Of a stretch of DNA of 64,000 bases, positions 1 through 62,433 are shown piece by piece; position 1 is the stretch's first letter, and each line of letters opens with the position of its first letter. Under the pieces are notes generated by a model. The model made no database searches. It was not told the DNA's origin and saw only the letters and a program-made list of their open reading frames with translations. The stretch lies in NCBI GenBank assembly GCA_964585155.1, contig CAZPCQ010000001.1:8070-72069 (forward strand), written 5' to 3'. The stretch comes from an uncultured Candidatus Saccharibacteria bacterium (lineage in GTDB: Bacteria > Patescibacteriota > Saccharimonadia > Saccharimonadales > Saccharimonadaceae). Both the position numbers and the translations under genes were made by a program.

Positions 1-593
1 AATCCATCAACTTCGACCTTATGTCCGAGACCGAGCGTGAAGGTGTTGAGTATAGTTACCAGAATTTCCTCAACTCTCTCAACTTTACTATTCAGATTCT
101 TGTTCGCTCTCAACGTGTCGATATCGGCCCTTATATTGAGCGCCTTTCCAACATCCGCCGTAACAACGACAATATGCTTCTCGGCGTCTTGATGGATGAT
201 TACATTAACTTCATCGACATTCTTTCCCAAGAAGCCAACATTATGGACAAATCCTTCTTTATTGTCATTCCATATTACAGTTCCGCCGATGCCGAAGCCC
301 TTGTCCAGCAGACCAAAAACCTGTTCAAAACTTTTGGCAAAAAAGCCCCCAACGTCACTCGTATCAATCGTGACACTTATAATAAAGCCGTCGACGAGCT
401 CAACAACCGCGTCGAAACCGTCATTTCTGGTCTATTTAATATCGGTATTCATTCCGTCCGCCTCAAAACTCGCGAACTCGCCGAACTCTATTACAACTTC
501 AATAATCCCGACACTGCCGTTCGCGAGCCTTTAGTTGACTTTACTAAGTTAGCCACCACCTATGTACGCAAAGGAGAAAAAACCAATGAGTAA
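1..593 (+). CDS. 5'-truncated T4SS-associated protein (TraC/TrsD-like VirB4 partner)
   Basis: Frame is open from the window edge (..SINFDLMSETERE..LNSLNFTIQILVRSQ..). It overlaps the start of the VirB4-like gene. Confidence 0.6.
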   Translation, partial: SINFDLMSETEREGVEYSYQNFLNSLNFTIQILVRSQRVDIGPYIERLSNIRRNNDNMLLGVLMDDYINFIDILSQEANIMDKSFFIVIPYYSSADAEALVQQTKNLFKTFGKKAPNVTRINRDTYNKAVDELNNRVETVISGLFNIGIHSVRLKTRELAELYYNFNNPDTAVREPLVDFTKLATTYVRKGEKTNE

Positions 594-2415: not shown

Positions 2416-2417
2416 CT

Positions 2418-5400
2418 ATGGCTACCGATACCAGAAAATCCACCAATGAGCTACAAGGCGGCGATCAACCGCTTTATCAGCCATGGAATGATTTTTCCGG
2501 TAGACCTCAAACCAGTCAAAGCCAAGACGATGTTCAAGATAACGGTCCTACCACCAGTAAAGAGAATTACGACAACGACCCTGGTTTTTATCGCAACTCC
2601 CGCGCCAACTCCGCCGTCAACACCCTTCGTAATGCCGAGAATGGCGCCTTATCCAATCGGGAAGCCGAATCTTCCTTATACACCGGTCAAGGTCGCAACA
2701 CCAATGCCAAATCCAAAGCCAAAGGCGGCAAGAAAAAAATCGGCGCTCTTATCACCATTCTTTGTATTCTCGGCGGTGGCGCTGCCTTCCTTGGCTCCTC
2801 CAACACACTCCTGCTCGACGCCGTCAATACTCTATTTACTAATGCCACTGATTATCAATACAGCCAATTTTCTCAACGTATTCTCAAACTTGTCGGTTTT
2901 AATATGGATAGCGATGATATCGTTATTACCGAAAAAAGTTGGACTGGCGCCCTTAAGTACAAACATATGTCCTCCGAATTCGAACAAAACCTCGCCAACG
3001 CCGGCTTCACTTTCGAAGGTTCCGGCGGCAAAAAAACCATGACCTGGACTTATGACACTGGCGACGGCACCACCATAACCCGCTCCGGCATCACCGCCAG
3101 CGAATTCATCGACTTATATAACAACAATGTTGACTTTCGCGGCAAATACAGTCTTGCCGCCGACAACCGTGCTATGACCGCTTTCGACGCCAGCGCCAAT
3201 GGCTCCTATCGCCACATCGGCAACACTCGTAATACTTTTAATGATTTTGAAGATACTGGCAATAACGAAACCAATCTCAAGAACTATCAAGATACCGTTC
3301 GCCCCAAGTTTGATGGCGATAGTACTACTCTCCAAACCTCAGGCAAACAAGAAGTCACCGAATACGTTGATAAATTAGATGCCAATGGCAATCCAGTTAT
3401 CGAAAATGGTCAAGTTGTCAAAGAACCAGTTACCAAAGAAGTACGACAATCCGCCTCCGATTCCGCTACCACTTCTTCCTCCGTTGATGTTGATGGAGCC
3501 AGAAGTATGATTAATAAAGTCTCTGGTGCCGTCAGTGATACTGGCAACTTCTACTGTGCCGCCATGAAATTCGGCAATATGATTTCTATGGCCATTGCTG
3601 GTAACGAAATCTATCAATCCATCCAATTCTTTATGACCCTCACTGAACCCCTCAGTAAGACCAAAGCCGGCTTCGGCGACCAGGCGCCCGTTCATCAGGT
3701 CCTCAACTGGTTTAGTACCAAAGCCGACACCGAAGTTAGTAATTTCGGCACCTTCAAGATCTCTGGCCAAGGCAAGCAGACTATCGAAGCACTTAGTCAA
3801 TCTGGCTCACCACTCGAATCTAACGGTATGCGCAATATCCTCGCTAATGCCGCACCCAATACCAAAGAAGTTAGCTCTTTCTCCCTCGAACGCGTCGACA
3901 ACTCCATCACCGGCCAGCTATCCAGTCTCGCCACTAGTAGTGATACCGCTGGTAATTGCGCCCGCTTCAGTATTACCGATAGCATAGTCTCTATCGGTCT
4001 CACTATTGCAAGTGGCGGTCTCACCAAGATTTTTGCCAACGTCATCGGCAAAGCCCTCATCGGCACCGCCATATCTGTCGCCATCAGCACCTTCTTTTCC
4101 TTCTTAACACCCACTATTCAAAACGCTTTCTTCACCAACGCTTTTGACAATGCTAAAGGTCAACCTGGCGGGGAATTATTTGCTCGCGGCAGCGGCGCCA
4201 TCGGCTCTCAAAATGCCCGTCGCAACAGCGGTTACGGTACCGCTTCCAAAACTAAAGTTATGCAATACAATAAGACTACCAACGCCGTACTCGCCCTCGA
4301 CGCCGAAGTTGACCGCCAGCGTCGCAGTCCTTTCGACATTAGTAGTCCCAATACCTTCTTTGGCAGTATCGCTTATAGTCTATTACCCACTCTCACCTCC
4401 ACCAACCTCACCGGTATTTCTTCTATCCTTACCTCCACCATGTCTTCGCTTTCTACCCTTATTGGCGGCGTTCACGCTGATGGCGAAAACTCCTCCTATA
4501 TGACCACTTTCGGCGAATGCCCTGCCCTCGAATCTATCGGCGCTACCGGTGATATGTATTGCAACCCTATACCTGTTCCCGACACTTCTACCGCCGACAT
4601 CACCCCTGACGACCAAAAATATCAAGAAGTCCTTAAAGAAGCCCAAGAGTGCGACAGTGAGGGTAACTGCACTATCAAACCCGAATCCGATCTCGCCAAA
4701 TACATTACATATTACGACGGTCGCGACTCACCTCTCGGCGTCGTCGATCAAAACATCCTCGCCGCTACGCAGCCCAGCAGCGATACTGGCATTATAGGTA
4801 CCGTCCTCAACCAAATCCCTATCGTTGGTGATATTATCAACATAGTTGACTCCGGTGCCGATATTGTAAATCTCCCCTGGGCCACTGGCGCCATCGGCTC
4901 CCAAAACGGCGGCGATAGTATCGCCAACCTCCTCGCCGCTACCGACGAAGTCGACTATAAAAACTGGTGGAACGAAAAAGGTAAATATTACCAACGCTAC
5001 GTCGAAGATTCTCGTATTCTCAATATGATGGGCGCCTACGAAGCCACCAATTCCAAAGATCCCGTCCTCGCCTACAAAGAAGAATACGAGCAAAAGTATC
5101 TCGAAGAACACCCCGAAGCCAACACCTACATCGGCTACCTCTCCCGTGTTTCCGGCCTCACTATCGAAAATACCGAAACCACTCTCGCCTTCATTGGCTA
5201 TCTCAATTATATCGATCAATACGACCCCACCCTCCGCATCGCTATGGACGGCGACACTACCGAGATCAAAACCGCCACCCAAATCGCCGCCATAGCCGCC
5301 GAGGATTATCACGCCATTTATTTCGAAAATGATAATCTAGAAACTACTTTCACTGAGCCCATTATCGCCAACCACCACATCATTTACGCCGACGTTCGTA

Positions 5401-5423
5401 ACCGGAGTTATGCCATATGTTAA
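2418..5423 (+). CDS. Large (1001 aa) membrane-anchored T4SS-cluster protein, function unknown
   Basis: Long ORF 2 nt after virB4 with hydrophobic segments (LITILCILGGGAAFL; SIGLTIASGGL..ISTFFSFL). Confidence 0.65.
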   Translation: MATDTRKSTNELQGGDQPLYQPWNDFSGRPQTSQSQDDVQDNGPTTSKENYDNDPGFYRNSRANSAVNTLRNAENGALSNREAESSLYTGQGRNTNAKSKAKGGKKKIGALITILCILGGGAAFLGSSNTLLLDAVNTLFTNATDYQYSQFSQRILKLVGFNMDSDDIVITEKSWTGALKYKHMSSEFEQNLANAGFTFEGSGGKKTMTWTYDTGDGTTITRSGITASEFIDLYNNNVDFRGKYSLAADNRAMTAFDASANGSYRHIGNTRNTFNDFEDTGNNETNLKNYQDTVRPKFDGDSTTLQTSGKQEVTEYVDKLDANGNPVIENGQVVKEPVTKEVRQSASDSATTSSSVDVDGARSMINKVSGAVSDTGNFYCAAMKFGNMISMAIAGNEIYQSIQFFMTLTEPLSKTKAGFGDQAPVHQVLNWFSTKADTEVSNFGTFKISGQGKQTIEALSQSGSPLESNGMRNILANAAPNTKEVSSFSLERVDNSITGQLSSLATSSDTAGNCARFSITDSIVSIGLTIASGGLTKIFANVIGKALIGTAISVAISTFFSFLTPTIQNAFFTNAFDNAKGQPGGELFARGSGAIGSQNARRNSGYGTASKTKVMQYNKTTNAVLALDAEVDRQRRSPFDISSPNTFFGSIAYSLLPTLTSTNLTGISSILTSTMSSLSTLIGGVHADGENSSYMTTFGECPALESIGATGDMYCNPIPVPDTSTADITPDDQKYQEVLKEAQECDSEGNCTIKPESDLAKYITYYDGRDSPLGVVDQNILAATQPSSDTGIIGTVLNQIPIVGDIINIVDSGADIVNLPWATGAIGSQNGGDSIANLLAATDEVDYKNWWNEKGKYYQRYVEDSRILNMMGAYEATNSKDPVLAYKEEYEQKYLEEHPEANTYIGYLSRVSGLTIENTETTLAFIGYLNYIDQYDPTLRIAMDGDTTEIKTATQIAAIAAEDYHAIYFENDNLETTFTEPIIANHHIIYADVRNRSYAIC

Positions 5424-7210
5424 AACACAAACTACAACTTTTTTTCAAAACTTTCCTCTGTCTCCTCCTCGCTCTCCTCATCGCCTCCCCCGCCTCCGCC
5501 GCCGACAGTTCCTACATTCAGTCTGCCGCCCTCAACGGTAGTTACTGGTACGATCCCTCCGCTCTTAATAGTAGCTGTTTTAGTAGTGATATTTCTATCT
5601 CTGGTAGTACCGCCGCTCAAAAAATCTGGTCCGGCCTCATTACTTTTATGACTCCCGAGCAAGCCGCTGGCGTCATCGGTAATATGGCCAGCGAAGGCGG
5701 TTTCAATCCCGTTCGTCACGAGATCTCCAAAAAGAATGCTCTTTGGCCCGGTTTCGATATTATGAACGACGTCTCCGATTCATATGGTATTGGCCTCATT
5801 CAATGGTCATGGGGGCGTCGCACCAAACTTCTTCATTATATCCAAAGCAACGACTCTAGTCTCATCCAATATTTTATGAATCCCGACACCTACAGTACTT
5901 ACGGTTCTGGCGACAAAACTTCCGGTGATGTTTTCCTTGAAAAAGTAGGTGATGCCGTTTTTGACCGCCTCATCCAGCTTGAGCTCGAAGTTCTCAAAAA
6001 CGAATTAAATATCAGTTACTCCGATTTCTTCAATCAAACCACCGTTTATGATGCCGCCAAATATTTCCTTGAGCGCGTCGAAAGACCCGCCAACCCTACC
6101 ATCGAAGCCCACCCCGAACGCGCCACCGCCGCCCAAACTTTTTATGACCAACTAAACGGCGCTTCTCTCACCCCATCCGGCAGTAACGGTACTAATATTT
6201 CCGGCTCCAGCATCACTATTATTGGCGATTCCATCACCGCCCGTTCCAGCAGCAGTCTCAGTAATAAACTCCCCGGCGTCGAGATTAACGCTGAAGTCGG
6301 TCGCAGTTTCGCTACCGGTATCGACATTGCTAGATCCATGGAACTCCGTAACGTCGTCGTCTTCGCCCTTGGCACCAATAGTCGCAATGTTAGCAGTGAC
6401 CAAATCCAAGAAGTCATCGATCTCGTCGGTCCTTCTCGCTCACTCTACTTCCTCACCAACTACGGCGTCGGCTACGACTTTACCAATAACAACCGTCTCT
6501 TCAATGAAGCCGCCGCCAGAAATTCCAACGTTAATGTTATCGACTGGGCCAGCTCCGTCTCTAGTAGCCCCGATAAATACATCGCCGTCAACGAATCCAC
6601 CCCGGTCCACCCCACTGCCGACGGCATCACCCTCTTTACTGATTTAATCTCTAACGCTGTTACCTCCAAAAACCTCACCAGCGACGGCTGTACTGTCAGC
6701 GGCGATTTCCAATCCACTGTTCTCGCCTACGCCTGGCCTACTCCATCCGACCCCGTCTCCACCGTCAACCAGGCTACTCCTAAACCCGAATACGCCGCCG
6801 CCGTTGCTCGTCGCCGCGCTGCCAACAAATATATCGGTACCAACGGCATTGACTGTGGCTGTTTCGTTGCCGCCGTCTTGACTGATAGTGGTTTCGCTCC
6901 TGGCTACCGTGATAATGGTATGGGTGGGGAAGAGTGGGTTATCGCCAATGGCTGGACTCTCCTCAATCCCGACGAAAACACCCCCATTTCCGACACTAGT
7001 ATTCTTCAGCCTGGCGATGTCGCCTTCTCCAACGGCGCCCCGGGCAACGCCGGCCACACCTTCCTATATGTCGGTGATATTCCTGGCTTCGGATCAAAAA
7101 TCGCTTCCGCTTCCACTGGACCCACCTGGCGCGCGCCTATGGCAGGCACAGAAAGCCTTACCCAAAGTAATTTTGGCGGCTATCCAGTTCGCTGGTATCG
7201 TAAAGGTTAA
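5417..7210 (+). CDS. Secreted cell-wall hydrolase: phage-tail-lysozyme-like + SGNH + NlpC/P60-like domains
   Basis: Signal peptide; QAAGVIGNMASEGGFNP..GIGLIQWS; IIGDS..ALGTN..VHP; DCGCFV..LQPGDV..GHTFLYVG. Confidence 0.75.
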   Translation: MLKHKLQLFFKTFLCLLLALLIASPASAADSSYIQSAALNGSYWYDPSALNSSCFSSDISISGSTAAQKIWSGLITFMTPEQAAGVIGNMASEGGFNPVRHEISKKNALWPGFDIMNDVSDSYGIGLIQWSWGRRTKLLHYIQSNDSSLIQYFMNPDTYSTYGSGDKTSGDVFLEKVGDAVFDRLIQLELEVLKNELNISYSDFFNQTTVYDAAKYFLERVERPANPTIEAHPERATAAQTFYDQLNGASLTPSGSNGTNISGSSITIIGDSITARSSSSLSNKLPGVEINAEVGRSFATGIDIARSMELRNVVVFALGTNSRNVSSDQIQEVIDLVGPSRSLYFLTNYGVGYDFTNNNRLFNEAAARNSNVNVIDWASSVSSSPDKYIAVNESTPVHPTADGITLFTDLISNAVTSKNLTSDGCTVSGDFQSTVLAYAWPTPSDPVSTVNQATPKPEYAAAVARRRAANKYIGTNGIDCGCFVAAVLTDSGFAPGYRDNGMGGEEWVIANGWTLLNPDENTPISDTSILQPGDVAFSNGAPGNAGHTFLYVGDIPGFGSKIASASTGPTWRAPMAGTESLTQSNFGGYPVRWYRKG

Positions 7211-8158
7211 ATGAGTAAAACATTTATGCAACCATCCAATCAATTTAACAAACGCAACACTATTATCCTAATCGTTATATGTACAATTATTATACTCGGA
7301 CTGATTATCTTTGGTATCGTTCGTGCCATTATTCGCTCTCACCAAGTTGAAATCGGTATCTACTATGCCCCTTTCACCGCTCAAGTTAAATTAAACGACG
7401 AGACCATCAAAAATAACTCCACCATCTGGATCGACCCCGGAGAATATCATATTACCGTTTCACTTGACCATTTCACCACGCTTAATACCACTTCTACCGT
7501 CGATCAATCCACTACCAACCTCTATGGCTCTCTTTCTCCTAGCGACGAAGAAGGTCAGCGCATCATGGAGACTTATCGCGCTGATTATGATATTATTCAA
7601 TCCCTTAATAGCGCCGCCGCCATTGCCCTAGGCGAAGCTCAACGCGCTAAATGGCCCCTTATTTCCGCCCTCCCTATTAGCAACCCTCTCTTTTCCATCG
7701 GCTACAATATTTCCACTAATGACCGCCTCACCATCAATATCAACGCCGCCACTACTTATCTCGATGACGCCATCCACACTCTCAAATCCCATCTTACCAC
7801 CAATGATTCGCTCGCCAATTACAACATCGCTTTTAATGATTGGACCAATCCACTTACTGATCAATTCCGCAGCAACACTAGCCAAGACCCCATCGAATAT
7901 CTTATTCAAGGTTATCGTCACCTCAACCCGGATCTCAATCTAGTTATTCAGTCAGGGAACTATGCTAACAACGGCCAGTATTACTATACCACTATCACTA
8001 CCGGATTCGACGAACGTTACAGTATCGTCACTTACCGCGCCATCCTCAAAAAAGACGGTACTTCTTGGCAACCCACCTCTACTCCTCAGCCTATTGTCAC
8101 TACTTATAATACTCCGGAAGTCTCCACTGACATCCTCAATGCAGCCAACAACCTATAA
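7211..8158 (+). CDS. Membrane-anchored hypothetical protein (possible PEGA-like domain)
   Basis: N-terminal TM helix; abuts the previous stop codon; followed by a terminator. Confidence 0.65.
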   Translation: MSKTFMQPSNQFNKRNTIILIVICTIIILGLIIFGIVRAIIRSHQVEIGIYYAPFTAQVKLNDETIKNNSTIWIDPGEYHITVSLDHFTTLNTTSTVDQSTTNLYGSLSPSDEEGQRIMETYRADYDIIQSLNSAAAIALGEAQRAKWPLISALPISNPLFSIGYNISTNDRLTININAATTYLDDAIHTLKSHLTTNDSLANYNIAFNDWTNPLTDQFRSNTSQDPIEYLIQGYRHLNPDLNLVIQSGNYANNGQYYYTTITTGFDERYSIVTYRAILKKDGTSWQPTSTPQPIVTTYNTPEVSTDILNAANNL

Positions 8159-8776: not shown

Positions 8777-9781
8777 TTATTCTACACTTAGTCCACCACT
8801 CCCCACACTTGTCAGCACAATCTGATTATCCCTAAAATTCTTCACTAGACACTTCTGCCTCATCTCATCCAGTTCCGAGAATACATCATCCAGTAATACT
8901 AGCGGTCTCTTCTCTAGTACCTCCAGTATCAACTCCGCCTCAATAAATTTTAACGCCAGAATGCTCGACCTCACCTCACCTCTACTCGCCGAGCCATCCG
9001 CTTTTCGTCCATTAAACACGAACTCATAGTTATCATGATGTACTCCAAAACTCGTATGTCCGAGCAGGGAATCACGCCCAAAATCCCGCTCCAGTCTCAA
9101 CAAGAAATCACTCTCTTCTTCCACTTCACTCAAATATTCCAATTTCACCTCATCCTCATTTTCCGCAATCGACCGATACACCTCCGTAAATCTCCGGTTT
9201 ATCTTCTCCATTATTTTTCTTCGCTCTTGATTTAGCGCCACTCCATGTTTTACCAGTAAAATATTCCAAGAAAACAAATCCCCTGGCATTATCATTTCAT
9301 CTTTCAATAATTCATTCCGCTGCTTCAGCGCCTTATTGTATCGCGTCAAATTCACCGCGTAGTTTTCCGATAACTGCCCAAACATCCGATCAAAATACCC
9401 CCGTTTACTCGTCGGACTCGACCCCACTAAGTGCAAATCATCCGGCTCAAACAATACAATCGGATATTGCAACTTTTTCGGCAGCCTCCCCGCTTTTTTA
9501 TCTTCCACCAAAAATTCTTTCTTCACCCCGTCATACACCGCCACTACTTTTCTGCCATCCTTATATTCCAACTCCACCCGATAAAATTCCGCCCCCCTTC
9601 GCAAAATCTCTTTATCCGCCGCCCGGAAACTTTTCCCCCGCAATACCTCATAGATCGCCTCTAGGATCGAAGTTTTCCCACATCCATTTTGCCCCATAAT
9701 AGTCGTCGTCTGCCCGGCACAATCCAGCACAAAACTCTCATGACTCCGAAAATTCACCAACTTCACTCGTCTAATTACCAT
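8777..9781 (-). CDS. recF: DNA replication/repair protein RecF
   Basis: GQNGCGKTSILEA, SASRGEVR, LLDDVFSELD; lies downstream of dnaN. Confidence 0.93.
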   Translation of the reverse strand: MVIRRVKLVNFRSHESFVLDCAGQTTTIMGQNGCGKTSILEAIYEVLRGKSFRAADKEILRRGAEFYRVELEYKDGRKVVAVYDGVKKEFLVEDKKAGRLPKKLQYPIVLFEPDDLHLVGSSPTSKRGYFDRMFGQLSENYAVNLTRYNKALKQRNELLKDEMIMPGDLFSWNILLVKHGVALNQERRKIMEKINRRFTEVYRSIAENEDEVKLEYLSEVEEESDFLLRLERDFGRDSLLGHTSFGVHHDNYEFVFNGRKADGSASRGEVRSSILALKFIEAELILEVLEKRPLVLLDDVFSELDEMRQKCLVKNFRDNQIVLTSVGSGGLSVE

Positions 9782-11288: not shown

Positions 11289-12662
11289 TTACCCATAAAT
11301 CTGCTCCCTCAGCTCGTTTACCTGATCCCTCAGACTGAAGTTCAATTTCAGGTCCTTTTCAATTTTCTTTACTCCGTGCATCACCGTTGTATGATCCTTC
11401 ACCCCTACCTCTAGCGCAATTTTCGGCGTACTCATCCCTAAATCTTTCGACAAAATATACATCGCCACCTGCCGTGCATTCTTAATATGCGCCACCCGAC
11501 TCTTTCCGCACATTTCTTTCGGTGTTAATTGATAAAACTTCGCCACTTTTTCTACCACCATCTTCGGTGACACCGTCTTCGCTCGTGTTGCATTAACCGA
11601 GTTCGCATACCCTTCCGTAATTACCTGATAAGGCGTCATATTCTTAAAATCTGCCACCGCCAAAATATGTGTCAACTCTCCTTCCAGTGCCCGAATATTT
11701 GTCTTCACATTATCCGCAATATATTCAATCGCTTCATCTTCAATTTCCGCTCCCCGGAACTCCGCCATCGATTTTAAAATCGCGCACCGGTCCTCAAACT
11801 GCGGCATCTGCAAATCATACTCACCCGCCTGTGATAGCCGCGACGCCAATCTCACATCTACCGACTTAATCTCATTCGGCAACCGATCCGATGTTACAAT
11901 AATCTGTTTGTCGTGTTGTGTTAGCTCGTTAAAAATATCAAAAAACTCCGCCTGTGACGCATCCTTATTCATGATCATCTGGAAATCATCAACAATCAAC
12001 ACATCTAATTTTTGGAATCTCTGCCGGAATTCCTCAATTTTTTTTGTCTGCAGCGCCTTAATGAAATCTGAATAAAAACTCGATATCGGCGTATAAAATA
12101 CTTTTAGTGACGGATCTCGCTTCAAGATCTCATTTCCGATCGCCTGCACTAGATGCGTCTTACCTAGTCCCGGTCCGCCATACAGGAAAAACGGGTTGTA
12201 TCTCGTCCCCGGCGCGTCAATTACATTTTGCGCCACGTTCACCGCTAGATCGTTATTTGTACCAATCACAAAATTATCTAGCGTATATCTTGGATTTAGC
12301 CCCGTTTGTACCGACCCGTTCACTAGTGGGGAAGAACGGTAATTTGAAGTCGCCACATTTGCTAATGACTGAATCGCATCCACTGGCGGTCTCGATATAT
12401 GATTTTTCGGTTTCGGCTTCTCTCGCGTCAAAATATCATATTTTATCTCTGTGACCGCTATGTCATTATGCGTCAGCGCCATCTTGATTACATCCGAGTA
12501 TTTCGACTGCAACTGTTTCCGCTTAAACACATTCGGCACCCCAATCACAATCAAATCATCTTCTATCGAAAGTAACTCTGCTCCAGTAAACCAAGTCGCA
12601 AACTGTTCCTTCGGAATCGTCTGTTCAATCTCAGCCATCACCTTCTTCCACACATCAAGCAT
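11289..12662 (-). CDS. dnaA: Chromosomal replication initiator DnaA
   Basis: YNPFFLYGGPGLGKTHL, DDFQ, RLASR, ARQVAMY, KDHTTVMHG. Confidence 0.98.
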   Translation of the reverse strand: MLDVWKKVMAEIEQTIPKEQFATWFTGAELLSIEDDLIVIGVPNVFKRKQLQSKYSDVIKMALTHNDIAVTEIKYDILTREKPKPKNHISRPPVDAIQSLANVATSNYRSSPLVNGSVQTGLNPRYTLDNFVIGTNNDLAVNVAQNVIDAPGTRYNPFFLYGGPGLGKTHLVQAIGNEILKRDPSLKVFYTPISSFYSDFIKALQTKKIEEFRQRFQKLDVLIVDDFQMIMNKDASQAEFFDIFNELTQHDKQIIVTSDRLPNEIKSVDVRLASRLSQAGEYDLQMPQFEDRCAILKSMAEFRGAEIEDEAIEYIADNVKTNIRALEGELTHILAVADFKNMTPYQVITEGYANSVNATRAKTVSPKMVVEKVAKFYQLTPKEMCGKSRVAHIKNARQVAMYILSKDLGMSTPKIALEVGVKDHTTVMHGVKKIEKDLKLNFSLRDQVNELREQIYG

Positions 12663-12679: not shown

Positions 12680-12870
12680 TTCCTTAATAACTTCATTATA
12701 CCAAACCTTCTCCCATTTTTCCACAGTTTTTTCTCCAAAAACCCACATTTTCCAACTATGTTATAATATGTCCACTCCGTAACAGAGATAACTTTTCCAC
12801 AGCCAGCTCCAAATCTCTAGTTTAATATGTGGAAAACTTCTTGAAAAAAGTGGAAAACTGGTGTATACTA
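12680..12870. promoter_or_regulatory. Divergent dnaA/rpmH promoters with DnaA boxes
   Basis: Boxes at 12717, 12793, 12828, 12849. rpmH promoter TTGAAA(12841)-17-TATACT(12864). Minus-strand TGGTATAAT near 12686. Confidence 0.7.
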
Positions 12871-13101: not shown

Positions 13102-13145
13102 GAAGAAAAGAATACGAAGGGGTGGGAGTGCAAGCCCTTCAAAAA
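13097..13145 (+). repeat. Structured repeat family A, 3' remnant
   Basis: GAAGGGGTGGGAGTGCAAGCC is also present in the 14.1 and 62.2 kb copies. Confidence 0.7.
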
Positions 13146-13185: not shown

Positions 13186-13545
13186 ATGTTATCCCAGCGT
13201 TATCGTTTTCATTCTCGGGGCGGCGTTAATTACACTTATCAAAAGGGTAAAACTATTCGCACGCCTCTGATTTCGCTAGTCTATAATCATAACTCTCGCG
13301 GCCGCCAACGCTTCGCTGTCGTCGTTTCCAAAAAAGTTCTTAAATCCGCCGTCGGTCGCAATACTATCCGCCGCCGCGTTTATGAGGCCATCCGCCTCGA
13401 ACTTCCGGGCTACCGCGAGCCGATGGATAATATTTTTGTCGTCTATAATCAATCCGTCCTCACGATGCCTTTTCTCGAACTTCGTCGCCTCATCAGGGGA
13501 CTAATGGACCGCAGCCTCACCGCTTATCATCCTCATCATAAATAA
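13186..13545 (+). CDS. rnpA: RNase P protein component
   Basis: RFAVVVSKKV.KSAVGRNTIRRR; synteny. Confidence 0.93.
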   Translation: MLSQRYRFHSRGGVNYTYQKGKTIRTPLISLVYNHNSRGRQRFAVVVSKKVLKSAVGRNTIRRRVYEAIRLELPGYREPMDNIFVVYNQSVLTMPFLELRRLIRGLMDRSLTAYHPHHK

Positions 13546-13571: not shown

Positions 13572-14117
13572 ATAGGCGAAGGATCTTGACATACGTTTAA
13601 TAGTGCGTTAAAATGGTCTCATACAGCTATTGAAAATTACTTTCGTTTACCGAAGGTAATTTTTATAGTCACCTTAAGGCGACTAATCTTGAATGATATA
13701 GTCATATAAGTCTCATTCCACATTGTTAAATTGTACTAATTCATCGACCAACCAATAAAGGTTGAATAGCATCGGCCAATTAGTCCTTCCTGTCAGTCTC
13801 CGCCATATCTCCATATTAGCATAAACTTTACTTAATATAAACACTAAATCATTATAAACATAAATATAAACACAAAAATAACTATATCACAACCCAAGAC
13901 TATACTTCCATAAACCAAATTTTATTATATAATAAGCAACACTAATATATCACCAAATGAATATTTAAGATATAATATTGATAATATGACACCAGATAAA
14001 AAATAAAGCCTCCTGAAGCAAAGGCCTACCGCCTCACGCCTCCCTCTAGCGAATAGTCATTATTTCATCTAAATCCAACTTTTTGTTTCTTAGTCTAGTT
14101 AAACTACGTCGTATTAT

Positions 14118-14212
14118 TCCGAGGCGACGAACCGCCCCTGAAGCGGGGCCTAAGACTTGGCCGAGCGGCCCGGAGCGGCCCCGCGGAAGGGGTGGGAGTG
14201 CAAGCCATCGGA
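14118..14212 (+). repeat. Structured repeat family A, short copy inside a larger nested inverted repeat
   Basis: GGCGACGAACCGCCCCT..CTAAGACTTGGCCGAGCGG..GCGGCCCCGCGGAAGGGGTGGGAGTGCAAGCC, flanked by a perfect 19-bp IR (14068-14086/14248-14266). Confidence 0.85.
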
Positions 14213-14406
14213 TGATTAGAAGAAAGATTTGTCTAGCATATTATCTTACAAAAAGTTGGATTTAGATTATGTACATTATTCGCTTAGAAAAAATTAAAAT
14301 ACCTTTTCCATTTTTTATTTTCAAAATATGTTAAAATTCTTTAAAATAAATATGAATTTCCACATCCCTTCTAGTCATCTCTATAAAAGTATGCTATAAT
14401 GGAACT

Positions 14407-15522
14407 ATGTTTTCATTTATTGATATGATTATCGTCCGCCCCATCACGAACATCCTCTTTTTGATCTACGGTTTCGTGGGTGATTTCGGCCTGGCGATTA
14501 TCCTTTTTACAGTTTTAGTTAAAATTTGTCTCTGGCCTATCGCCAAGAAACAGCTTCATCAGACTCGCCTGATGCGCAAGATTCAGCCTGAGCTCGCTGA
14601 GATCAAGAAGAATTGCAATGGTAACCGCCAGCTCGAATCTCTTCAGATGATGGATCTCTACAAGCGCAACAATATCAAACCTTTCCGCTCTATGCTTACG
14701 CTTATTATCCAGCTGCCGATTTTTATCGCCCTCTATACTGCGGTTCGCGTGATGGTTTTACCAGTTCCCGATGACAATCTTGAGCTTCGCGCCTACGCCC
14801 CCGTCCGCCAGATCGAGCGCGTCGAAGAAGTCGTCCAGCTTCAGCAGCCTTATCTCGAGTATCAGCGCGAAGTTGCCGCCATCCGCAGTGATAGTAATTT
14901 GAGTGACGAAGAAAAAACCGCCAAAATCGACGAACTTCCCAAAGTCACCTATGATTTTCACCCTAAACTTTTCGGTCTTGTCGATCTCGATGTTAAGGCT
15001 GGTTTTGGCTCCACTAGTGCTCTCGTGATTATGGTTTTTGCTCTCGCTTCCGCCTTCACTCAGTTTTGGATTTCTCGCCAACAACTTCCATCTAAAAAAG
15101 GTGACCGTAAAACCTTCCGCCAAATCATGGCCGAAGCCGCCGACGGTAAAGAGCCTGACCAAGCCGATATGAATCAAGTTATGTCTAGTCAGATGGCCTA
15201 TACGATGCCGATTATGATGCTCCTCATTATGATTAATCTCCCTGGCGCTCTTGTCTTTTACTATCTTATCACGAATCTTATGACCGGTCTCCAGCAAAAG
15301 TATATCCTCGGCAAAAAAGAAGAACAAATGGAAATCTCTGCCGACAAAAAACTCATCCGCGACCTCAAGAAAATGGAAGAAGGCCAGATTGTCGAAGATA
15401 CTACATCTAATCGGTGGGTCAAGAGTAAGAATGCGACCAAAAGTGAAGACAAAGCCGGTGTGAAAGTTACGCACATTTCCGCCAAAAGTAGTCGCAGGGG
15501 TCATAAGAAGAAAAGGAGTTAA
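14407..15522 (+). CDS. yidC: Membrane protein insertase YidC
   Basis: DFGLAIILFTVLVK..IQPEL..LIIQLPIFIALY; GALVFYY; synteny. Confidence 0.95.
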   Translation: MFSFIDMIIVRPITNILFLIYGFVGDFGLAIILFTVLVKICLWPIAKKQLHQTRLMRKIQPELAEIKKNCNGNRQLESLQMMDLYKRNNIKPFRSMLTLIIQLPIFIALYTAVRVMVLPVPDDNLELRAYAPVRQIERVEEVVQLQQPYLEYQREVAAIRSDSNLSDEEKTAKIDELPKVTYDFHPKLFGLVDLDVKAGFGSTSALVIMVFALASAFTQFWISRQQLPSKKGDRKTFRQIMAEAADGKEPDQADMNQVMSSQMAYTMPIMMLLIMINLPGALVFYYLITNLMTGLQQKYILGKKEEQMEISADKKLIRDLKKMEEGQIVEDTTSNRWVKSKNATKSEDKAGVKVTHISAKSSRRGHKKKRS

Positions 15523-18566: not shown

Positions 18567-18622
18567 TTATCCACCACCCGCACACCACTTGTGCAAAACT
18601 CTGTGGAAAACTCTGTGCAAAA
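18567..18622. promoter_or_regulatory. DnaA-box-like cluster upstream of the FISUMP-1 promoter
   Basis: TTATCCACC 18567; TGTGCAAAA 18590; TGTGGAAAA 18602; TGTGCAAAA 18614. Confidence 0.55.
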
Positions 18623-18683
18623 CTTTCCGCGCACCTAATAATATAATATAACCCCGCGGAAAACCATTCCCCTACTCCCCCCT

Positions 18684-38337: not shown

Positions 38338-38660
38338 TATTACCCCTCCTAATTTTTTGTCTTCTGATCTGATTTCACTGGATAACCGCAGTAGAACTTG
38401 TATAACTACCTGGTTTATAAAGTCCCACTTCGGTCTTTGCTGGATTTTTGCTGGTTTCTGCTATGTCTGGCCCATCCGCCAGAGATTTTCCCACCTTTCT
38501 TCTAGTAAAATTGATTTCAAAGAACCTCGGGTCACACCCAACCTTCAAATTATAGCACACTTCACCAAACATTTCAAGTCTTGCCAAAACGCTTATGCTG
38601 TGCTACAATAAGCTCATCGCTCTGCTAATGAGCCAAAAGTTGATTTTTCTATAAAGATTT

Positions 38661-38870
38661 TGAGGGCGGCGAACCGCCTCTGGAGCGGGACCTAAGACTT
38701 GGCCGAGCGGATTCCGAACTGCCGAGAATAGCGAACAGAAAGAAAAGTCTTTGAGTAGTATTCTATATATCATACACTTTATTAGACTTTTCTTTCTTAA
38801 GCGACGCAGGCAGCATGTGGCGCCAGCCACTGCAGCGGTCCCGCGGAAGAGGTGGGAGCGAAAGCCCTCA
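38661..38870 (+). repeat. Structured repeat family A, full copy
   Basis: Aligns end to end with 62221-62430; ends 6 bp from the galE stop codon. Confidence 0.9.
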
Positions 38871-42178: not shown

Positions 42179-42590
42179 CTGCCCTCCTTGTGGGTATTAA
42201 TTATCGCCCCGCAGCCGCCATCTTTGAGGAGGGCCAACTCCATACAAAAATGGCGCCGCGAGGCGAAACCACAATCTAGAAGCAATCTGCTCAAGAACGT
42301 TAGCTTTCTCGTGACGCCATTTTCACGTTCTCAAACAAATACACTCAAATAAGCAATTGTCATAATTCCAAATTGTGATTTCGCACTTCCAATTATATAT
42401 CAAACTGTCTGCGTTTTCAAGCATTTTTCTCGCCTCCCCAGCGAGCTGACGTACGTATCATAAGTTTCATAACCCACTCTTTAGCAGTTAGGATTAAAAA
42501 CCTTCAGAGCTGTCAACAACACGGCCTCCTAAGGCAGATACCTCCTCCTCTCCATCTCTCCTCTAGCGAATTAATCTTGATATTATGCTC

Positions 42591-42746
42591 GGCGCGACCC
42601 GGTGAACCTTTTCATTCGAGGTTATTTCGTTCCTGGCTGGCTCGGGTCCGATTCAGGCGGGTTGGTTCTGAGTGAGAATGGGCTAAATCCTGATGAGGAG
42701 AGAGCCACCAAACCTCGGAGGGAAAGGTGAGCGCAAGGGGAGCGCC
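42591..42746 (+). repeat. Structured repeat family B, copy 1
   Basis: GGCGCGACCCGGTGAACCTTTTCATTC..GGAAAGGTGAGCGCAAGGG shared with 51742-51898. Confidence 0.85.
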
Positions 42747-42915
42747 TTCGCATATATTATTTTAATTCGCCTAAAAAATAAAAATCCTTTTCCATTTTTT
42801 ATTTTCGATATTAATTATAAAAACTATTTCCAAAAACTTTTTATTAATTTTTTGGTTTCAAAAATCTAAGAATATCCTCCTTTCCCAAACCCCCAATCTA
42901 TGCTATACTTATCTT

Positions 42916-49753: not shown

Positions 49754-50252
49754 TAAAATTCCTCCTTTGAGTAGTCTAAAGCCACTCCATCCAGTGGCCT
49801 TATTTCTACCCAAACAGGGAATTAACTAACCAAAATGTACCTAAGCCACTACAGATAATAGACTGTAGCCAGCCCATATCTCCACTATAGCACACATCTG
49901 CCAAAAAGTCAAGGTTGCTTTTCCGCCCAATCATATGATTTTATACTATCGACTAAAATAAAATCAATACCGCCTACACTTCTCTCCTGCAAAGTCAAAC
50001 TAACTCGCGAAATCTCACTATTTTCCACTCAAAACCTAAATTCTGTGCTATAATAGAACTGCTGAAAGACAATTTGATTAAGTAACCTATGGTTTTATAT
50101 GTAGCCTACATTTTTCATAATGCATTAAAATGGCGTCACGAACGGCTAAAAAAGTGCATTGTGATCGTAAGGTTACTCTGTTGTCTTTCAGCACCGTCTC
50201 GCGGCGCCATTTTTGTATTAAGCCTCGGGCGGTGAACTAATAAAGGAGGCAG

Positions 50253-51737
50253 ATGCTAAAACTCAACACTAAATTAAAATACCCACTCTTCACAATAACT
50301 TTTGCGTTGGGTGGATTTTTCTTATTTCAATACCTAACTTTTATTCCCGAATACTCCAACGCCACAACTATAGAAACTCCCGTCTACGACGATTCCAAAG
50401 TCGACACGCGCACTCTTTCTGACATTACTTATATGCAAGAAATGACATCTGGAATATGTAAACGTTCTGTAAAAAATGAAAGTAAACAACTTATCGATGG
50501 CCGTGATGGAAAACACTATTGGGTAACAAAGCTCGTTGGTCCAGGCGGTGAAGAAAAAAATGGATGTTGGATGACGCAAAATTTGGATTTCGATTTGTGG
50601 AATGAGGAGACTAATGAACCAATAGTATTAAAAGTGGATAATTTAAATTTTATGGGCACAGATATAGAAAAGAATTGGGAGTCTACTTCTGGGAGATCTG
50701 TGCTATGGGCGGATTCGGGGAGCGAGACAGTTAAGTACTATGACCCGGGGTACTATTTGTATAAAGGCTTTTCTTTACGTCAGCCGGCGTCTCGCGATTT
50801 GGCATATGGCAAGGCATCGGAAAATTTGACCTTGACGGATGCTCATTACCTTCAAGGGAATTACTATTCATTCAACGCTGCTACGGCTGGCAAAGGGGCA
50901 AATTTTGGCCTTGTGGGTAAGGATGAAGATGTACGGAGTAGTATTTGTCCGAAAGGCTGGAGGCTACCTACGGCTCTTAGTGATGATGGGGTGTCATTCA
51001 ATTTTTTAAATACAGTAAGCACAACTAAGATATTTTCATCACCGTATTTCTTTATAAATAGCGGTTTTGTGAATGGAGGCTTGCTAGATGATGCCTTCGC
51101 TGGTAGATACTGGTCTTCTACGGCTTATGCTTATAGGGACGATGCTTATGATTGGGGTTTTGCTGATGGTGACGAGTGGCCAGCGCTTGGTATAATTTAC
51201 AGATATGAGGGAAAGACTATAAGATGCGTAGCGAGGGACGATACTGAAGATGTGGAGACTCCGGGCATTGATAATCCAAACACCTCCGTCACCGTCCCAA
51301 ACATAATAACACTAGACGTAAGTAATAATGTAAATATAGAAACAAATACTAATACAGTAAACGAAGGTAGTTTCACCGCTTCCGTCAGTTCTAATGCTCC
51401 ATATAGCATTAGTCTTAGTACCACGGATGGTGGCCACACCGACTTACGTAATGATAATACCAACTCCTCCATTCCCGCATTAAACCCTACTTCTAATATC
51501 ACAGAGAGTAGTAGTAAATGGTGGGGAATCAAATGTACTAACTCAGGCACTTCCACGGGTTGTACTAAAACAACCTATACTGGTCTTACTAATCACTTAA
51601 CTCCCACTCTTTTCTATACATCAACTCAAAGTACCTCTAACCAACTCACCCACTTCACCATCGGCATCCAAACCTCTCCCGACCTCCCAAGTGGCACTTA
51701 TTCCACCAGTATATTAGTTACTGCATCTCAGAATTAG
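50253..51737 (+). CDS. FISUMP domain surface protein 3 (FISUMP first, beta-sandwich domain last)
   Basis: NGCWMTQNL, GNYYSFNAA, ICPKGWRLP, GRYWSST, TIRCVAR; RBS AAGGAGG. Confidence 0.8.
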   Translation: MLKLNTKLKYPLFTITFALGGFFLFQYLTFIPEYSNATTIETPVYDDSKVDTRTLSDITYMQEMTSGICKRSVKNESKQLIDGRDGKHYWVTKLVGPGGEEKNGCWMTQNLDFDLWNEETNEPIVLKVDNLNFMGTDIEKNWESTSGRSVLWADSGSETVKYYDPGYYLYKGFSLRQPASRDLAYGKASENLTLTDAHYLQGNYYSFNAATAGKGANFGLVGKDEDVRSSICPKGWRLPTALSDDGVSFNFLNTVSTTKIFSSPYFFINSGFVNGGLLDDAFAGRYWSSTAYAYRDDAYDWGFADGDEWPALGIIYRYEGKTIRCVARDDTEDVETPGIDNPNTSVTVPNIITLDVSNNVNIETNTNTVNEGSFTASVSSNAPYSISLSTTDGGHTDLRNDNTNSSIPALNPTSNITESSSKWWGIKCTNSGTSTGCTKTTYTGLTNHLTPTLFYTSTQSTSNQLTHFTIGIQTSPDLPSGTYSTSILVTASQN

Positions 51738-51741
51738 TCTC

Positions 51742-51898
51742 GGCGCGACCCGGTGAACCTTTTCATTCAAGGTTATTTCTTTACTGGCTGAGCCGGGTCC
51801 GATTTGCGAGAGGAGAATAGTAGAACAGAATAACTATGCTCCGCAATGAGGAGAGGCTCACCGAACCTTGAATGGAAAGGTGAGCGCAAGGGTTGCGC
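51742..51898 (+). repeat. Structured repeat family B, copy 2
   Basis: Homologous to 42591-42746; starts 4 bp after the FISUMP-3 stop codon. Confidence 0.85.
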
Positions 51899-52554
51899 GT
51901 ATTGGCCTTTTGAACAAGGTAGCCGTGCCTTGGAAAAAATCAAACAAAAAAGAGCGCAGAAACCCTTGTATTTTTCAGATAAGTGTGTTAGAATGGGAGC
52001 ATAAAGAGAGTTGATTACCTTCGATTGATGTCGAGGGTAATCTTTAGTTTACGCACTAGTGGGCTTTTAGCCTTGTCTAGCTCGATTTCTAAAGAGGCTC
52101 TCTTCATACTCACCTCCTCACGCAAGGCCATTTTTATAAAAAATGGCGGTAGAGCGTATCTTCGGAAATAAAAATACAAGTATTTTTGTTTCACTCAGAT
52201 ACTACTACCTAAAATTGTTTATATTATCGAAAATTGTAGGAGACGAACCAATAAAAGTAACACTACTTATAGAAAGTAGTGCCTTAGCGGGAATTAAGTT
52301 ATTTTTATTGTGAGGCGACGCCCAATTTTCTGGCGCGTCAGCGACAGACCTGAAAAAGTTAATAATCTAAACTATACAAAACGTTTTCTACGCTCTCTAC
52401 ATCTATCCTATCAGAGAAATAGGCTTTTGCATAGGGTAAAATTCGGTCGAAGCCCGATTTCCCCAGAGGCAACCACAAAAAAGTCCCATTTTTGTGAAAA
52501 AAGTCTTAAAAAAGTCTTGATTTTCTAAAAATCTGCGGTATAATGTACATATGT

Positions 52555-62056: not shown

Positions 62057-62166
62057 TTAGCACTCTTGCATTGTGAGTGCTAATGTGCTACAATAGAGGT
62101 AAGTTGGCAATCGCAATGCCCGACTGCCAACTAAATTAAATAGCACTATTGACATTCGAGTGCTAG
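62057..62166 (+). promoter_or_regulatory. Three CIRCE/CIRCE-like HrcA operators
   Basis: TTAGCACTC-N9-GAGTGCTAA (62057, perfect); TTGGCAATC-N9-GACTGCCAA (62104); ATAGCACTA-N9-GAGTGCTAG (62140). Confidence 0.88.
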
Positions 62167-62217
62167 TGAATTAGAATAATAAAAGATGAAGTTTAATAAT
62201 TTGACGTAGAAAATGAT

Positions 62218-62433
62218 TTTGAAGGCGACGAACCGCCCCTGGAGCGGGGCCTAAGACTTGGCCGAGCGGATTCCGAACTGCCGAGGATAGCGACTAGAAA
62301 GAAAAAGTCAGTACGTATCAATATATAACCAATGTAATACAAATGACTTTTTCTTTCTGGAGCGACGCAGGCAGCACGTGGCGTCAGCCACTGCAGCGGC
62401 CCCGCGGAAGGGGTGGGAGTGCAAGCCTTCAAA
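62218..62433 (+). repeat. Structured repeat family A, full copy in the dnaK leader
   Basis: TTTGAAGGC..GCCTTCAAA termini; homologous to 38661-38870. Confidence 0.9.

What the first reader, a model, noticed from the sequence alone, without database searches (positions are those of the whole stretch)
14008..14335. Same flanking shell around different structured cargos (family A at yidC, family B at the WcaJ-like gene)
Seen: left flank GCCTCCT(G/A)A(A/G)GCA..CCTC..CTCTAGCGAAT (14008-14054 vs 42524-42571) and right flank ATTCGC(TT/CT)A..AAAAT..CCTTTTCCATTTTTTATTTTC (14278-14322 vs 42765-42806) are homologous. TAGCGAAT/ATTCGC..A closes an outer stem. The interiors are unrelated families, and each unit precedes a leaderless-type promoter. 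Inference: a REPIN-like shell, or an insertion hotspot with exchangeable cargo.
Basis: partly seen in the sequence, partly recalled or inferred. Interest (0 to 1): 0.65.

Follow-up and report, generated by a model that had tools for sequence, protein, structure and literature searches.

The report
Modular hairpin repeats with swappable cores
Two intergenic spacers of a small, probably Saccharibacteria-type gut bacterium hold the same pair of short end sequences around two unrelated folded GC-rich cores. They belong to a strain-specific family of modular, hairpin-forming repeats that are gained and lost between close strains, which is unexpected in so small a genome but is a known kind of element.

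Summary
The left flanks (14008-14054 / 42524-42571) and right flanks (14278-14326 / 42765-42812) are homologous well beyond chance. They close an outer stem, CTAGCGAAT/ATTCGC-Y-TAG, with a conserved bulged pyrimidine. The interiors are unrelated.

Contigs from sequencing runs that hold the same strain show the shell is not limited to these two sites:
- The left end has at least 6 copies, with at least 4-5 different interiors.
- The right-end A/T hairpin has about 11-20 copies.
- Family A has about 16 full copies, and its core up to about 80.
- Family B has about 10-28 copies.
- A second full shell+A copy, about 90% identical, ends at the same boundaries (14007/8 and 14326).

A closely related strain lacks 388 nt that include shell+A. 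Four relatives (85-90% YidC identity) also lack it.

My best reading is a mosaic, non-autonomous intergenic repeat, similar in kind to BIME, BOX and MITE elements. It has REP-like structured cores nested in the tip of a conserved outer hairpin.

It is not a REPIN: the two ends are not inverted copies of each other. No empty shell, target-site duplication, transposase or transcript was found, so how it moves and what it does remain inferred. No Rfam, phage or plasmid match was found. Interest is moderate.

The parts
14008..14054 (+). Left end module L, unit 1. C/T-rich, 62% GC, ends in CTCTAGCGAAT.
   Evidence: Aligned to 42524-42571. About 4x single-copy depth in the same-strain run X1. A second copy begins its match at 14007.
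14055..14114 (+). 5' arm of the AT-rich inner stems of unit 1. Includes the perfect 20-nt arm 14067-14086.
   Evidence: Inverted repeat I2, 100% complementary. Paired in the fold. Only about 2-3x depth in X1, so it is specific to the composite.
14115..14212 (+). Family A core, short form (CCCGG apical loop), 70% GC.
   Evidence: Homologous to 38653-38870 and 62212-62431. Compensatory pairs and G.U pairs are seen on the + strand. About 16-80x depth in X1. No Rfam match.
14213..14277 (+). 3' arm of the AT-rich inner stems of unit 1. Includes 14248-14267.
14278..14326 (+). Right end module R, unit 1. ATTCGCTTAG followed by an A/T hairpin with a CCTTTTCC loop.
   Evidence: About 11x depth in X1. 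The second full copy ends its match at 14326.
42524..42571 (+). Left end module L, unit 2.
   Evidence: Two further contigs in X1 carry it with other interiors and other upstream DNA.
42572..42764 (+). Interior of unit 2: short AT stems around the family B core (about 42588-42745).
   Evidence: Fold. Homologous to 51733-51900 and to L019 9822-9985, with compensatory pairs. The 5' and 3' domains are at about 9-28x and 13-15x depth; the middle is at about 2.5-5x.
42765..42812 (+). Right end module R, unit 2. ATTCGCCTA followed by the A/T hairpin. A weaker repeated extension runs to about 42870.
   Evidence: About 20x depth in X1, on 14 contigs; several are preceded by ATTCGCCTAG or ATTCACCTAG.
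38653..38870 (+). Family A, long form, without a shell. Lies downstream of a TGCTACAAT promoter.
62212..62431 (+). Family A, long form, without a shell. Lies in the dnaK leader between the CIRCE operators and the SD.
   Evidence: Related organisms lack it there.
13104..13139 (+). 3' fragment of family A, upstream of rnpA.
51733..51900 (+). Family B without a shell. Starts directly after the stop codon of 50253-51737.

Best explanation
The two loci are members of a lineage-specific family of mosaic, non-coding, hairpin-forming intergenic repeats in a small-genome gut bacterium. I infer from gene content that it is Saccharibacteria-like; this was not verified.

Each composite is built from modules that are each repeated in the genome on their own:
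- an L end (about 47 nt, C/T-rich, ending in CTCTAGCGAAT);
- AT-rich stem arms;
- a GC-rich, REP-like structured core taken from one of several multi-copy families (A, B and others);
- an R end (ATTCGC-Y-TAG followed by a roughly 33-nt A/T hairpin).

L and R pair through a 9-14 bp stem with a conserved bulged pyrimidine, so the core sits at the tip of one long hairpin.

Shown: the modular make-up, the copy numbers, the discrete boundaries, the structure with covariation on the + strand, and block-wise presence or absence between strains.

Inferred: the composites spread as non-autonomous DNA elements, mobilised in trans or copied by recombination. Interiors are exchanged at the hairpin tip, by nested insertion into the palindrome centre or by recombination between the shared ends. 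Family A shows the same behaviour: its short and long forms differ by a 125-nt block at the apical loop.

The likely effect on the host is that of REP, BIME, BOX and Correia elements. When transcribed, a very stable hairpin (-95 to -107 kcal/mol) would act as a transcript barrier or stabiliser between neighbouring transcription units. This effect is inferred, not shown.
For: Flank homology and the closing stem.

More shells in the same strain (run X1):
- Further left ends have other interiors and unrelated upstream DNA, with the boundary again at GCCTCCT.
- A left copy reading ...GCGAATTGATA and right copies reading TATCAATTCGCCTAG are mutually complementary. I infer they belong to one element, because no contig joins them. 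If so, the stem and the bulge are kept.

Depth profiles relative to a single-copy depth of about 95:
- L: about 3-4x in each of its two versions
- inner stems: about 2-3x
- whole A: about 16-40x, and its core about 80x
- B: about 9-28x
- R: about 11-21x
- outside the unit: 1x

A second full-length shell+A copy, about 90% identical, matches 14007-14140 and 14189-14326.

Presence or absence between strains:
- An X7 contig joins 13970 to 14359, with 23 nt in place of 388 nt.
- L016, L017, L020 and L021 (85-90% YidC identity) lack the unit.
- The X7 strain keeps unit 2.

Tip-exchange precedent: short-form and long-form A joints, with CCCGG in place of 125 nt and CGAAG in place of 43 nt.

Structure of the cores: compensatory and G.U pairs on the + strand.

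Other checks: no ORF of any substance in either unit, and no Rfam, phage or plasmid match.
Against: - No target-site duplication: the X7 empty allele differs from the filled one by a replacement (23 nt for 388 nt), not a clean insertion.
- L and R are not inverted repeats beyond 9-14 bp, and their copy numbers differ. Most R copies therefore cannot be paired with an L of the two known types.
- The 5' block of L also stands at the orthologous site of a relative (L047) that has no CTCTAGCGAAT, no B and no R core. Part of L may therefore be older local sequence.
- In X7, L is no better conserved than the unique spacer next to it (about 8% against 10% substitutions).
- No transposase or Y1/RAYT gene was found among the 30 window ORFs scanned against Pfam.
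- No RNA data exist for this organism.
- Copy numbers rest on unitig word depth in a metagenome. They would be inflated if co-resident strains carry the same modules.
Confidence: 0.55

Rival explanations
1. Landing-pad model. L+R is a pre-existing palindromic repeat (CTAGCGAAT|ATTCGCcTAG with its flanks). Independent hairpin elements (A-type, B-type and others) insert into its centre, as IS1397/ISKpn1 and IS621 insert into REP sequences.
For: - A and B are far more numerous than L and occur without a shell, bounded by their own closing stems.
- At least 4-5 different interiors follow the same CTCTAGCGAAT.
- Family A itself accepts or loses blocks at its apical loop.
- IS targeting of REP sequences is cited in PMC3184786.
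Against: - No empty shell (L directly abutting R) among about 8-10 left-end sequences read in X1, X7 and X8.
- The AT-rich stems between the shell and A are low-copy (about 2-3x) and travel with the composite, not with the many other A copies.
- The cores carry no coding capacity, so a trans-acting enzyme is still needed.
Confidence: 0.2
2. ncRNA gene family. Each unit is a gene for a structured RNA. L and R are shared 5' leader and 3' processing or termination signals, for example a processing stem like those that flank rRNAs.
For: - The + strand folds markedly better than shuffles and better than the - strand.
- Covariation and G.U pairs in A and B support the + strand.
- A copies at 38653 and 62212 lie downstream of recognisable promoters.
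- A TGATAATAT -10-like box lies about 20 nt upstream of L in unit 1, and TGAGATAAT lies before a third copy.
Against: - No promoter-like site upstream of L in unit 2, and no canonical terminator after R on the + strand.
- The promoter-like AT stretch of unit 1 is not part of the repeated unit.
- Tens of copies and strain-level presence or absence fit repeats better than genes.
- The R hairpin is very weak (-1.2 and -3.5 kcal/mol).
- No RNA data are available.
Confidence: 0.15
3. Shared promoter-upstream regulatory region. R, and perhaps L, is an operator or UP-like site of a regulon. The similarity of the two loci would reflect common regulation of yidC and the sugar-transferase operon, and the cores would be incidental.
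For: - Both units lie 85-110 nt upstream of leaderless-type promoters, in the same orientation.
- R has about 11-20 copies, a regulon-like number.
- One X5 copy is followed by a TGATATAAT box.
Against: - The distance to the -10 box differs (about 70 against 95 nt).
- Close relatives keep the yidC promoter without any R.
- Leaderless promoters are common here, at 11 of 46 gene starts, and most have no shell.
- This does not explain L, the closing stem or the second shell+A copy.
Confidence: 0.07
4. Chance similarity in AT-rich, low-complexity spacers.
For: - The exact 21-mer also occurs by chance in unrelated genomes, metagenomes and viral contigs.
- The left-flank score alone is reached by 1 of 300 shuffles.
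Against: - Within the window the right-flank score is about 16 sd above the shuffles.
- The two flanks are collinear and pair with each other.
- Further copies with the same boundaries exist in the same strain and in related strains.
Confidence: 0.02

Closest known systems
BIMEs (bacterial interspersed mosaic elements) built from REP palindromes, in E. coli and relatives
   Same: Intergenic mosaics that combine GC-rich imperfect palindromes with other short conserved motifs in varied combinations. The modules have different copy numbers. The hairpins carry G.T/G.U pairs on one strand. Known roles are at the transcript level (stability, termination) and as protein-binding sites (PMC3184786; the rest is established knowledge).
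   Different: The GC-rich cores here are 90-220 nt multi-helix domains, not roughly 35-nt REPs. Copy numbers are tens, not hundreds. The cores sit inside a conserved outer hairpin made by two unlike end modules. The sequences are unrelated. The host appears to be a reduced-genome CPR-type bacterium. No RAYT gene has been seen, though only the window was tested.
Pneumococcal BOX elements (boxA-boxB(n)-boxC)
   Same: Modular non-coding repeats with two different conserved end modules that can pair, and a variable middle. They fold into stable structures, are transcribed and are thought to be mobilised in trans (PMC3184786).
   Different: In BOX elements the middle is 0-8 tandem copies of a single boxB. 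Here the middle is one of several unrelated structured families plus element-specific AT-rich stems. There is no sequence similarity.
MITEs such as Correia (CREE), RUP, ERIC and Nezha
   Same: Small (about 100-400 nt), non-coding, multi-copy and intergenic. Their terminal sequences pair into a long hairpin, and insertion sites are polymorphic between close strains (PMC3184786).
   Different: The terminal inverted repeat here is only 9-14 bp with a bulge, and the conserved ends extend beyond it asymmetrically. No target-site duplication was found. No parent IS is known. The interiors are not variants of one sequence.
REPINs (REP doublets forming hairpins) with RAYT transposases
   Same: Hairpin-forming intergenic repeats, proposed to be mobile as a unit.
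   Different: A REPIN is two inverted copies of the same REP sequence. L and R are not copies of each other, and the A copies in the window are single and all in one orientation.
IS elements that target palindromic repeats (IS1397/ISKpn1 and IS621 in REP sequences)
   Same: They would explain different inserts at the centre of one repeated palindrome.
   Different: Those inserts are autonomous IS elements that encode a transposase. Here the inserts are non-coding.

Membership tests
MITE | Terminal inverted repeats | tested here: inconclusive
   Only CTAGCGAAT/ATTCGC-Y-TAG is conserved among copies: 9 bp, or up to 14 bp in one copy, with one bulged pyrimidine. The conserved ends outside it are not inverted repeats.
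MITE | Target-site duplication flanking the element | tested here: not met
   The flanks of three left ends (..AATAAA|G..AAAAT|G..ACACG|G) and of the right ends share no direct repeat. The X7 empty allele has 23 unrelated nt in place of 388 nt.
MITE | Small, non-coding and multi-copy | tested here: met
   The units are 319 nt and about 290-350 nt. Inside them the ORF lists show only short unsupported frames of 20-60 aa. There are at least 6 L and about 11-20 R copies.
MITE | Insertion polymorphism between close strains | tested here: met
   X7 joint 13970->14359. The unit is absent in L016, L017, L020 and L021.
MITE | A cognate autonomous IS with the same ends | not testable with these tools
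   The rest of the genome is not available. No transposase was found among the 30 window ORFs scanned.
REPIN / REP-RAYT | Two inverted copies of one short REP palindrome | tested here: not met
   L (54-62% GC, C/T-rich) and R (18-21% GC, A/T hairpin) are unrelated. The A cores are single and all on the + strand.
REPIN / REP-RAYT | An associated RAYT (Y1 transposase) gene | tested here: inconclusive
   None was found among the 30 window ORFs scanned against Pfam. The other roughly 95% of the genome was not seen.
BOX-type modular repeat | Two distinct conserved end modules with a variable middle, forming a stable hairpin | tested here: met
BOX-type modular repeat | Middle made of tandem copies of one sub-repeat; sequence homology to boxA/B/C | tested here: not met
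   The interiors are unrelated families. There is no match to any Rfam family. The comparison with the boxA/B/C sequences themselves was not run.
IS200/IS605-derived elements (PATE) | Similar subterminal hairpins at both ends and a conserved flanking tetra- or pentanucleotide | tested here: not met
   The small GCCT...AGGC hairpin of L is not conserved: the X7 orthologue of unit 2 loses it. It is unlike the A/T hairpin of R. The nucleotides next to the left end differ between copies.
Known structured RNA family (Rfam 15) | Covariance-model match | tested here: not met
   Only tRNA-Met reaches the gathering threshold in the window. Nothing credible was found at E<=10 in either unit or in long-form A.
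Independent ncRNA gene | Own promoter and terminator; discrete transcript | tested here: inconclusive
   There is no consistent promoter or terminator on the + strand. No RNA run holds this organism.

The most novel reading that the evidence does not exclude
The conserved outer hairpin with its extrahelical pyrimidine could be a docking site read, as folded single-stranded DNA or RNA, by a dedicated recombinase or nuclease. That enzyme would exchange structured-RNA 'cassettes' at the hairpin tip. This would be an integron-like or attC-like cassette system for non-coding RNAs in a reduced-genome episymbiont. Families A, B, C and others would then be functional RNA modules that are shuffled between promoters.
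Probability: 0.06. Interest if true: 0.85.

Novelty: new variant of a known kind. Interest (0 to 1): 0.5.

Why it matters
Reduced genomes of CPR/Saccharibacteria-type episymbionts are usually described as compact and poor in repeats.

Here the intergenic spacers carry several families of structured, covarying GC-rich modules, each in tens of copies. These are assembled into nested hairpins that differ between strains only a few percent apart.

If this holds genome-wide, three things follow:
- These repeats are a major source of strain-level variation next to essential genes (yidC, dnaK, cell-envelope operons).
- They break short-read assemblies. The Logan contigs used here end at these repeats, as their short lengths and ends inside the modules show.
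- They offer a tractable case for asking how non-coding palindromic modules are exchanged at hairpin tips.

Families A and B are also candidates for new structured RNA or DNA motifs that are absent from Rfam.

Tried and rejected
1. Whole-collection scans with the exact right-flank 21-mer returned only chance hits in coding or unrelated DNA: genome contigs (the one Saccharibacteria hit read, L014, lies in dense coding-like sequence with no shell features), metagenome contigs and viral contigs.
2. Viral scans with the family A core and with a left-flank pattern found nothing.
3. The exact YidC protein is not on record. Orthologous loci were reached through homologues instead.
4. Rfam at the gathering threshold and at E<=10 gave no credible family for A (short or long), B or the shell. 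The CUGAUGAG in B1 looked hammerhead-like, but it is not conserved in B2 or L019 and has no covariance-model support. The GCCACUG in long-form A recalled the B12 box, with no covariance-model support. The UGGCCGAGCGG in A recalled a tRNA-Ser D-arm (from memory), but there is no tRNA hit at E<=10.
5. I tested whether L pairs with its own cargo as an alternative structure. Duplex energies are no better than with shuffled L (118 and 77 of 300 shuffles are as good). Rejected.
6. The small hairpin in L as a minus-strand terminator is predicted only for unit 1 and is lost in the X7 orthologue of unit 2. It is not a general feature.
7. Small ORFs in or beside the units, including a 24-aa hydrophobic ORF at 13844-13918 (-), are not conserved in L016 or L021.
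8. Phage and plasmid collections gave no match.
9. RNA evidence: no RNA run holds the organism. The RNA runs offered only share the sample's host-type species label.
10. Blast of all modules against about 110 kb from relatives at up to 90% protein identity found only a B-like element in L019 and family C in L016/L017.
11. Taxonomy could not be confirmed from cluster names.
12. Literature searches found no description of such repeats in Saccharibacteria or Patescibacteria.

Full report
**Setting**

The window carries dnaA (11289-12662, -), rpmH, rnpA (13186-13545), yidC (14407-15522) and a jag-like gene. Further on are cell-envelope and polysaccharide genes, including a Bac_transf sugar transferase (42916-44343), and then nusA and dnaK. 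Gene content and layout look like a small-genome Saccharibacteria/CPR-type bacterium. That is my inference: cluster names gave no taxonomy. Sequencing runs X1-X4 hold about 98% of the sampled words of the region, so they carry the same strain. X5-X8 are labelled gut metagenomes or carry no organism label; they hold about 7-10% and so carry related strains.

Yes.
- The right flanks share an exact 21-mer that occurs only at these two places in the window, even with 3 mismatches allowed; 0.01 matches are expected.
- The best local alignment between the two whole spacers is this right flank. It scores 63, against 23 +/- 2.5 in shuffles.
- The left flanks align over 47-48 nt, from GCCTCCT(G/A)A(A/G)GCA to CCTCTAGCGAAT. 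The score is 33 against 20 +/- 2.4, and 1 of 300 shuffles reaches it.
- In the minimum-free-energy folds, CTAGCGAAT pairs with ATTCGC-Y-TAG and leaves one pyrimidine bulged. The whole unit becomes one long hairpin of -106.6 kcal/mol (unit 1) and -95.4 kcal/mol (unit 2). The z-scores are -9.3 and -4.9 on the + strand, weaker on the - strand.
- The interiors show no similarity to each other.
- The leaderless-type promoters after both units are real. They are common in this genome, at 11 of 46 gene starts, so they are not a property of the shell.

**What the cargos are**

Family A (14115-14212) has two longer copies at 38653-38870 and 62212-62431, and a 3' fragment at 13104-13139.
- It is a rod of three helices with conserved internal loops.
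- The copies differ by compensatory changes, and the helices contain G.U pairs that only work on the + strand.

Family B (about 42588-42745) has a second copy at 51733-51900 and a diverged relative upstream of yidC in L019.
- Ten pairs change on both sides and stay paired.

Neither family matches any Rfam model, nor any phage or plasmid record. Neither has coding capacity.

**Genome-wide copies, from contigs of the same strain (X1)**

The collection-wide pattern scans found only chance hits. I therefore laid the contigs of X1 on the units. Single-copy depth is about 95.

Along unit 1 the depth profile is:

| Segment | Depth relative to single copy |
|---|---|
| Upstream of L | 1x |
| L | about 4x |
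| AT-rich stems | about 2-3x |
| Whole family A | about 16-40x |
| 30-nt A core (CTAAGACTTGGCCGAGCGG...) | about 80x |
| R | about 11x |
| After 14326 | 1x |

Along unit 2 the profile is:

| Segment | Depth relative to single copy |
|---|---|
| L | 2-3x |
| B 5' domain | 9-28x |
| B middle | 2.5-5x |
| B 3' domain | 13-15x |
| R core | about 20x, on 14 contigs |
| Extension to about 42870 | tails off |

These figures rest on unitig word depth in a metagenome, so they are approximate. They agree within about two-fold with the density of A, B and R in the window.

Further left ends in X1 keep the GCCTCCT boundary after unrelated upstream DNA. After CTCTAGCGAAT they continue into other interiors: TGATATAGAATCTAAT..., TATCTTGATTAAGTTGGCC... 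and so on. X7 and X8 add more. Right ends are preceded by ...TATCAATTCGCCTAG, which is complementary to the left copy ...CTAGCGAATTGATA. If these belong to one element, the stem and the bulge are conserved in a third interior type; no contig joins them. No left end was followed directly by a right end, so no empty shell was seen.

A second full-length shell+A composite, about 90% identical, matches from 14007 and up to 14326. This fixes the unit boundaries. It also shows that the composite, including its low-copy AT stems, has been copied as a whole.

**Gain and loss between strains**

- An X7 contig that is otherwise about 96% identical joins 13970 to 14359. It has 23 nt in place of the 388 nt that include shell+A.
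- The four closest yidC loci from other samples (85-90% YidC identity) also lack the unit. They align on both sides of it.
- More distant relatives have other things in the same spacer: an extra gene plus another GC-rich hairpin in L018, a B-like element in L019, and almost no spacer in L022.
- Unit 2 is present at the same site in the X7 strain.
- It is not present in a relative at 87% protein identity. That relative keeps only an L-like 5' block there.
- The A copy in the dnaK leader is missing in related organisms.
- The same call shows A's short form (CCCGG loop) and long form (125-nt block) as alternative states, plus a third state with a CGAAG loop. The tips of these hairpins are therefore where sequence is exchanged, at two nested levels.

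**Interpretation**

The evidence fits a mosaic family of non-autonomous intergenic repeats. REP-like structured cores are nested at the tip of an outer hairpin made by two unlike end modules. The closest known kinds are BIMEs, pneumococcal BOX elements and MITEs (properties as reviewed in PMC3184786).

Where it fails strict membership:
- REPIN: L and R are not inverted copies of each other.
- Classical MITE: there is no target-site duplication, and only a short bulged terminal repeat.
- IS200/IS605 derivative: the end hairpins are unlike, and there is no conserved flanking tetranucleotide.

How it spreads, and what it does for or to the host, are inferred by analogy only. No transposase was found among the 30 window ORFs scanned, and no transcript data exist.

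Rivals that remain open:
- The shell as a landing pad for hairpin elements.
- A family of ncRNA genes with shared end signals.
- A promoter-upstream regulatory site.

Observations that do not fit neatly:
- R is several-fold more abundant than L.
- Part of L may be old local sequence (L047).
- L is no better conserved than the neighbouring unique spacer in X7.

**Verdict**

The finding is real and extends genome-wide. This is a new variant of a known kind of element in an unexpected host. It is of moderate interest, and a closed genome plus RNA end-mapping would settle the mechanism.

Noticed in passing
window 52215-52365; L016 690-782; L017 2-36: A third structured module, 'family C' (ATCGAAAAxTGTAGGAGAyGA...GACGCCCAxTTTTCTGGCGCGTyAGCGACAGACC), directly downstream of a -10-like box. 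In L016/L017 it lies in the rnpA-yidC spacer, where the window has none, so it is another module that changes place between strains.
   Followed up: partly
window 62212-62431 (also 38653-38870 and 14115-14212): Family A has a short form (CCCGG loop) and a long form (125-nt three-way insert). X7 and X8 contigs show the alternative states: joints 62269->62395 with CCCGG and 62305->62349 with CGAAG. The dnaK-leader copy lies between two CIRCE operators (62057-62083, 62140-62166) and the SD, and is absent in related organisms.
   Followed up: partly
window 51733-51900: The shell-less family B copy starts right after the stop codon (TAG, 51735-51737) of the 494-aa Fib_succ_major-domain gene. The position recalls stop-codon-proximal REP elements.
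   Followed up: no
window 42242-42265 and 50195-50218 (inverted); L018 about 9620-9645: A 24-nt element, ATACAAAAATGGCGCCGCGAGGCG, is shared by the 5' leaders of paralogous Fib_succ_major-domain genes and by a homologous extra gene in a relative. It is likely a leader or regulatory structure of that paralogue family.
   Followed up: no
window 12716-12860, 18585-18635, 33682-33990, 45327-45615: Clusters of DnaA-box-like TTTTCCACA/TGTGGAAAA motifs. The first lies between dnaA and rpmH and is a plausible oriC. The last (6-10 copies) lies inside the ORF 44340-46337, which is unexplained.
   Followed up: no
window 13586-13680; L016 530-620: A small conserved unit in the rnpA-yidC spacer: a TTGACA-17-TAAAAT promoter followed by a short hairpin with a T-run. 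It is conserved in a relative at 90% YidC identity and is a candidate small RNA or attenuator.
   Followed up: no
window, 46 gene starts: 11 of 46 gene starts have a -10 box ending 5-8 nt before the start codon and no SD (leaderless type). Many others have a strong GGAGG SD. Both modes coexist.
   Followed up: yes
X7 contigs laid on 42594-42655 (loose end behind 42653): A B-family copy in a related strain carries CTGAAGCAGAGGCCT in its variable middle. This is nearly the 5' block of the L module (CCTGAAGCAAAGGCCT), which hints that L-like sequence can also sit inside a core.
   Followed up: no
window 42531 and 42533 (also 14015 and 14017): The 5' block of L is dimorphic, TAAGGCA or TGAAGCA. 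The X7 orthologue of unit 2 carries the unit-1 version, which removes the small GCCT/AGGC hairpin.
   Followed up: partly
window 562-8158: A type-IV-secretion-like gene block (TraG/VirB4-type P-loop ATPase, a 1001-aa protein with no Pfam match, a phage-tail-lysozyme-domain protein, a PEGA-domain protein) next to the recF-dnaN-dnaA region. The same neighbourhood occurs in relatives L018 and L022.
   Followed up: no
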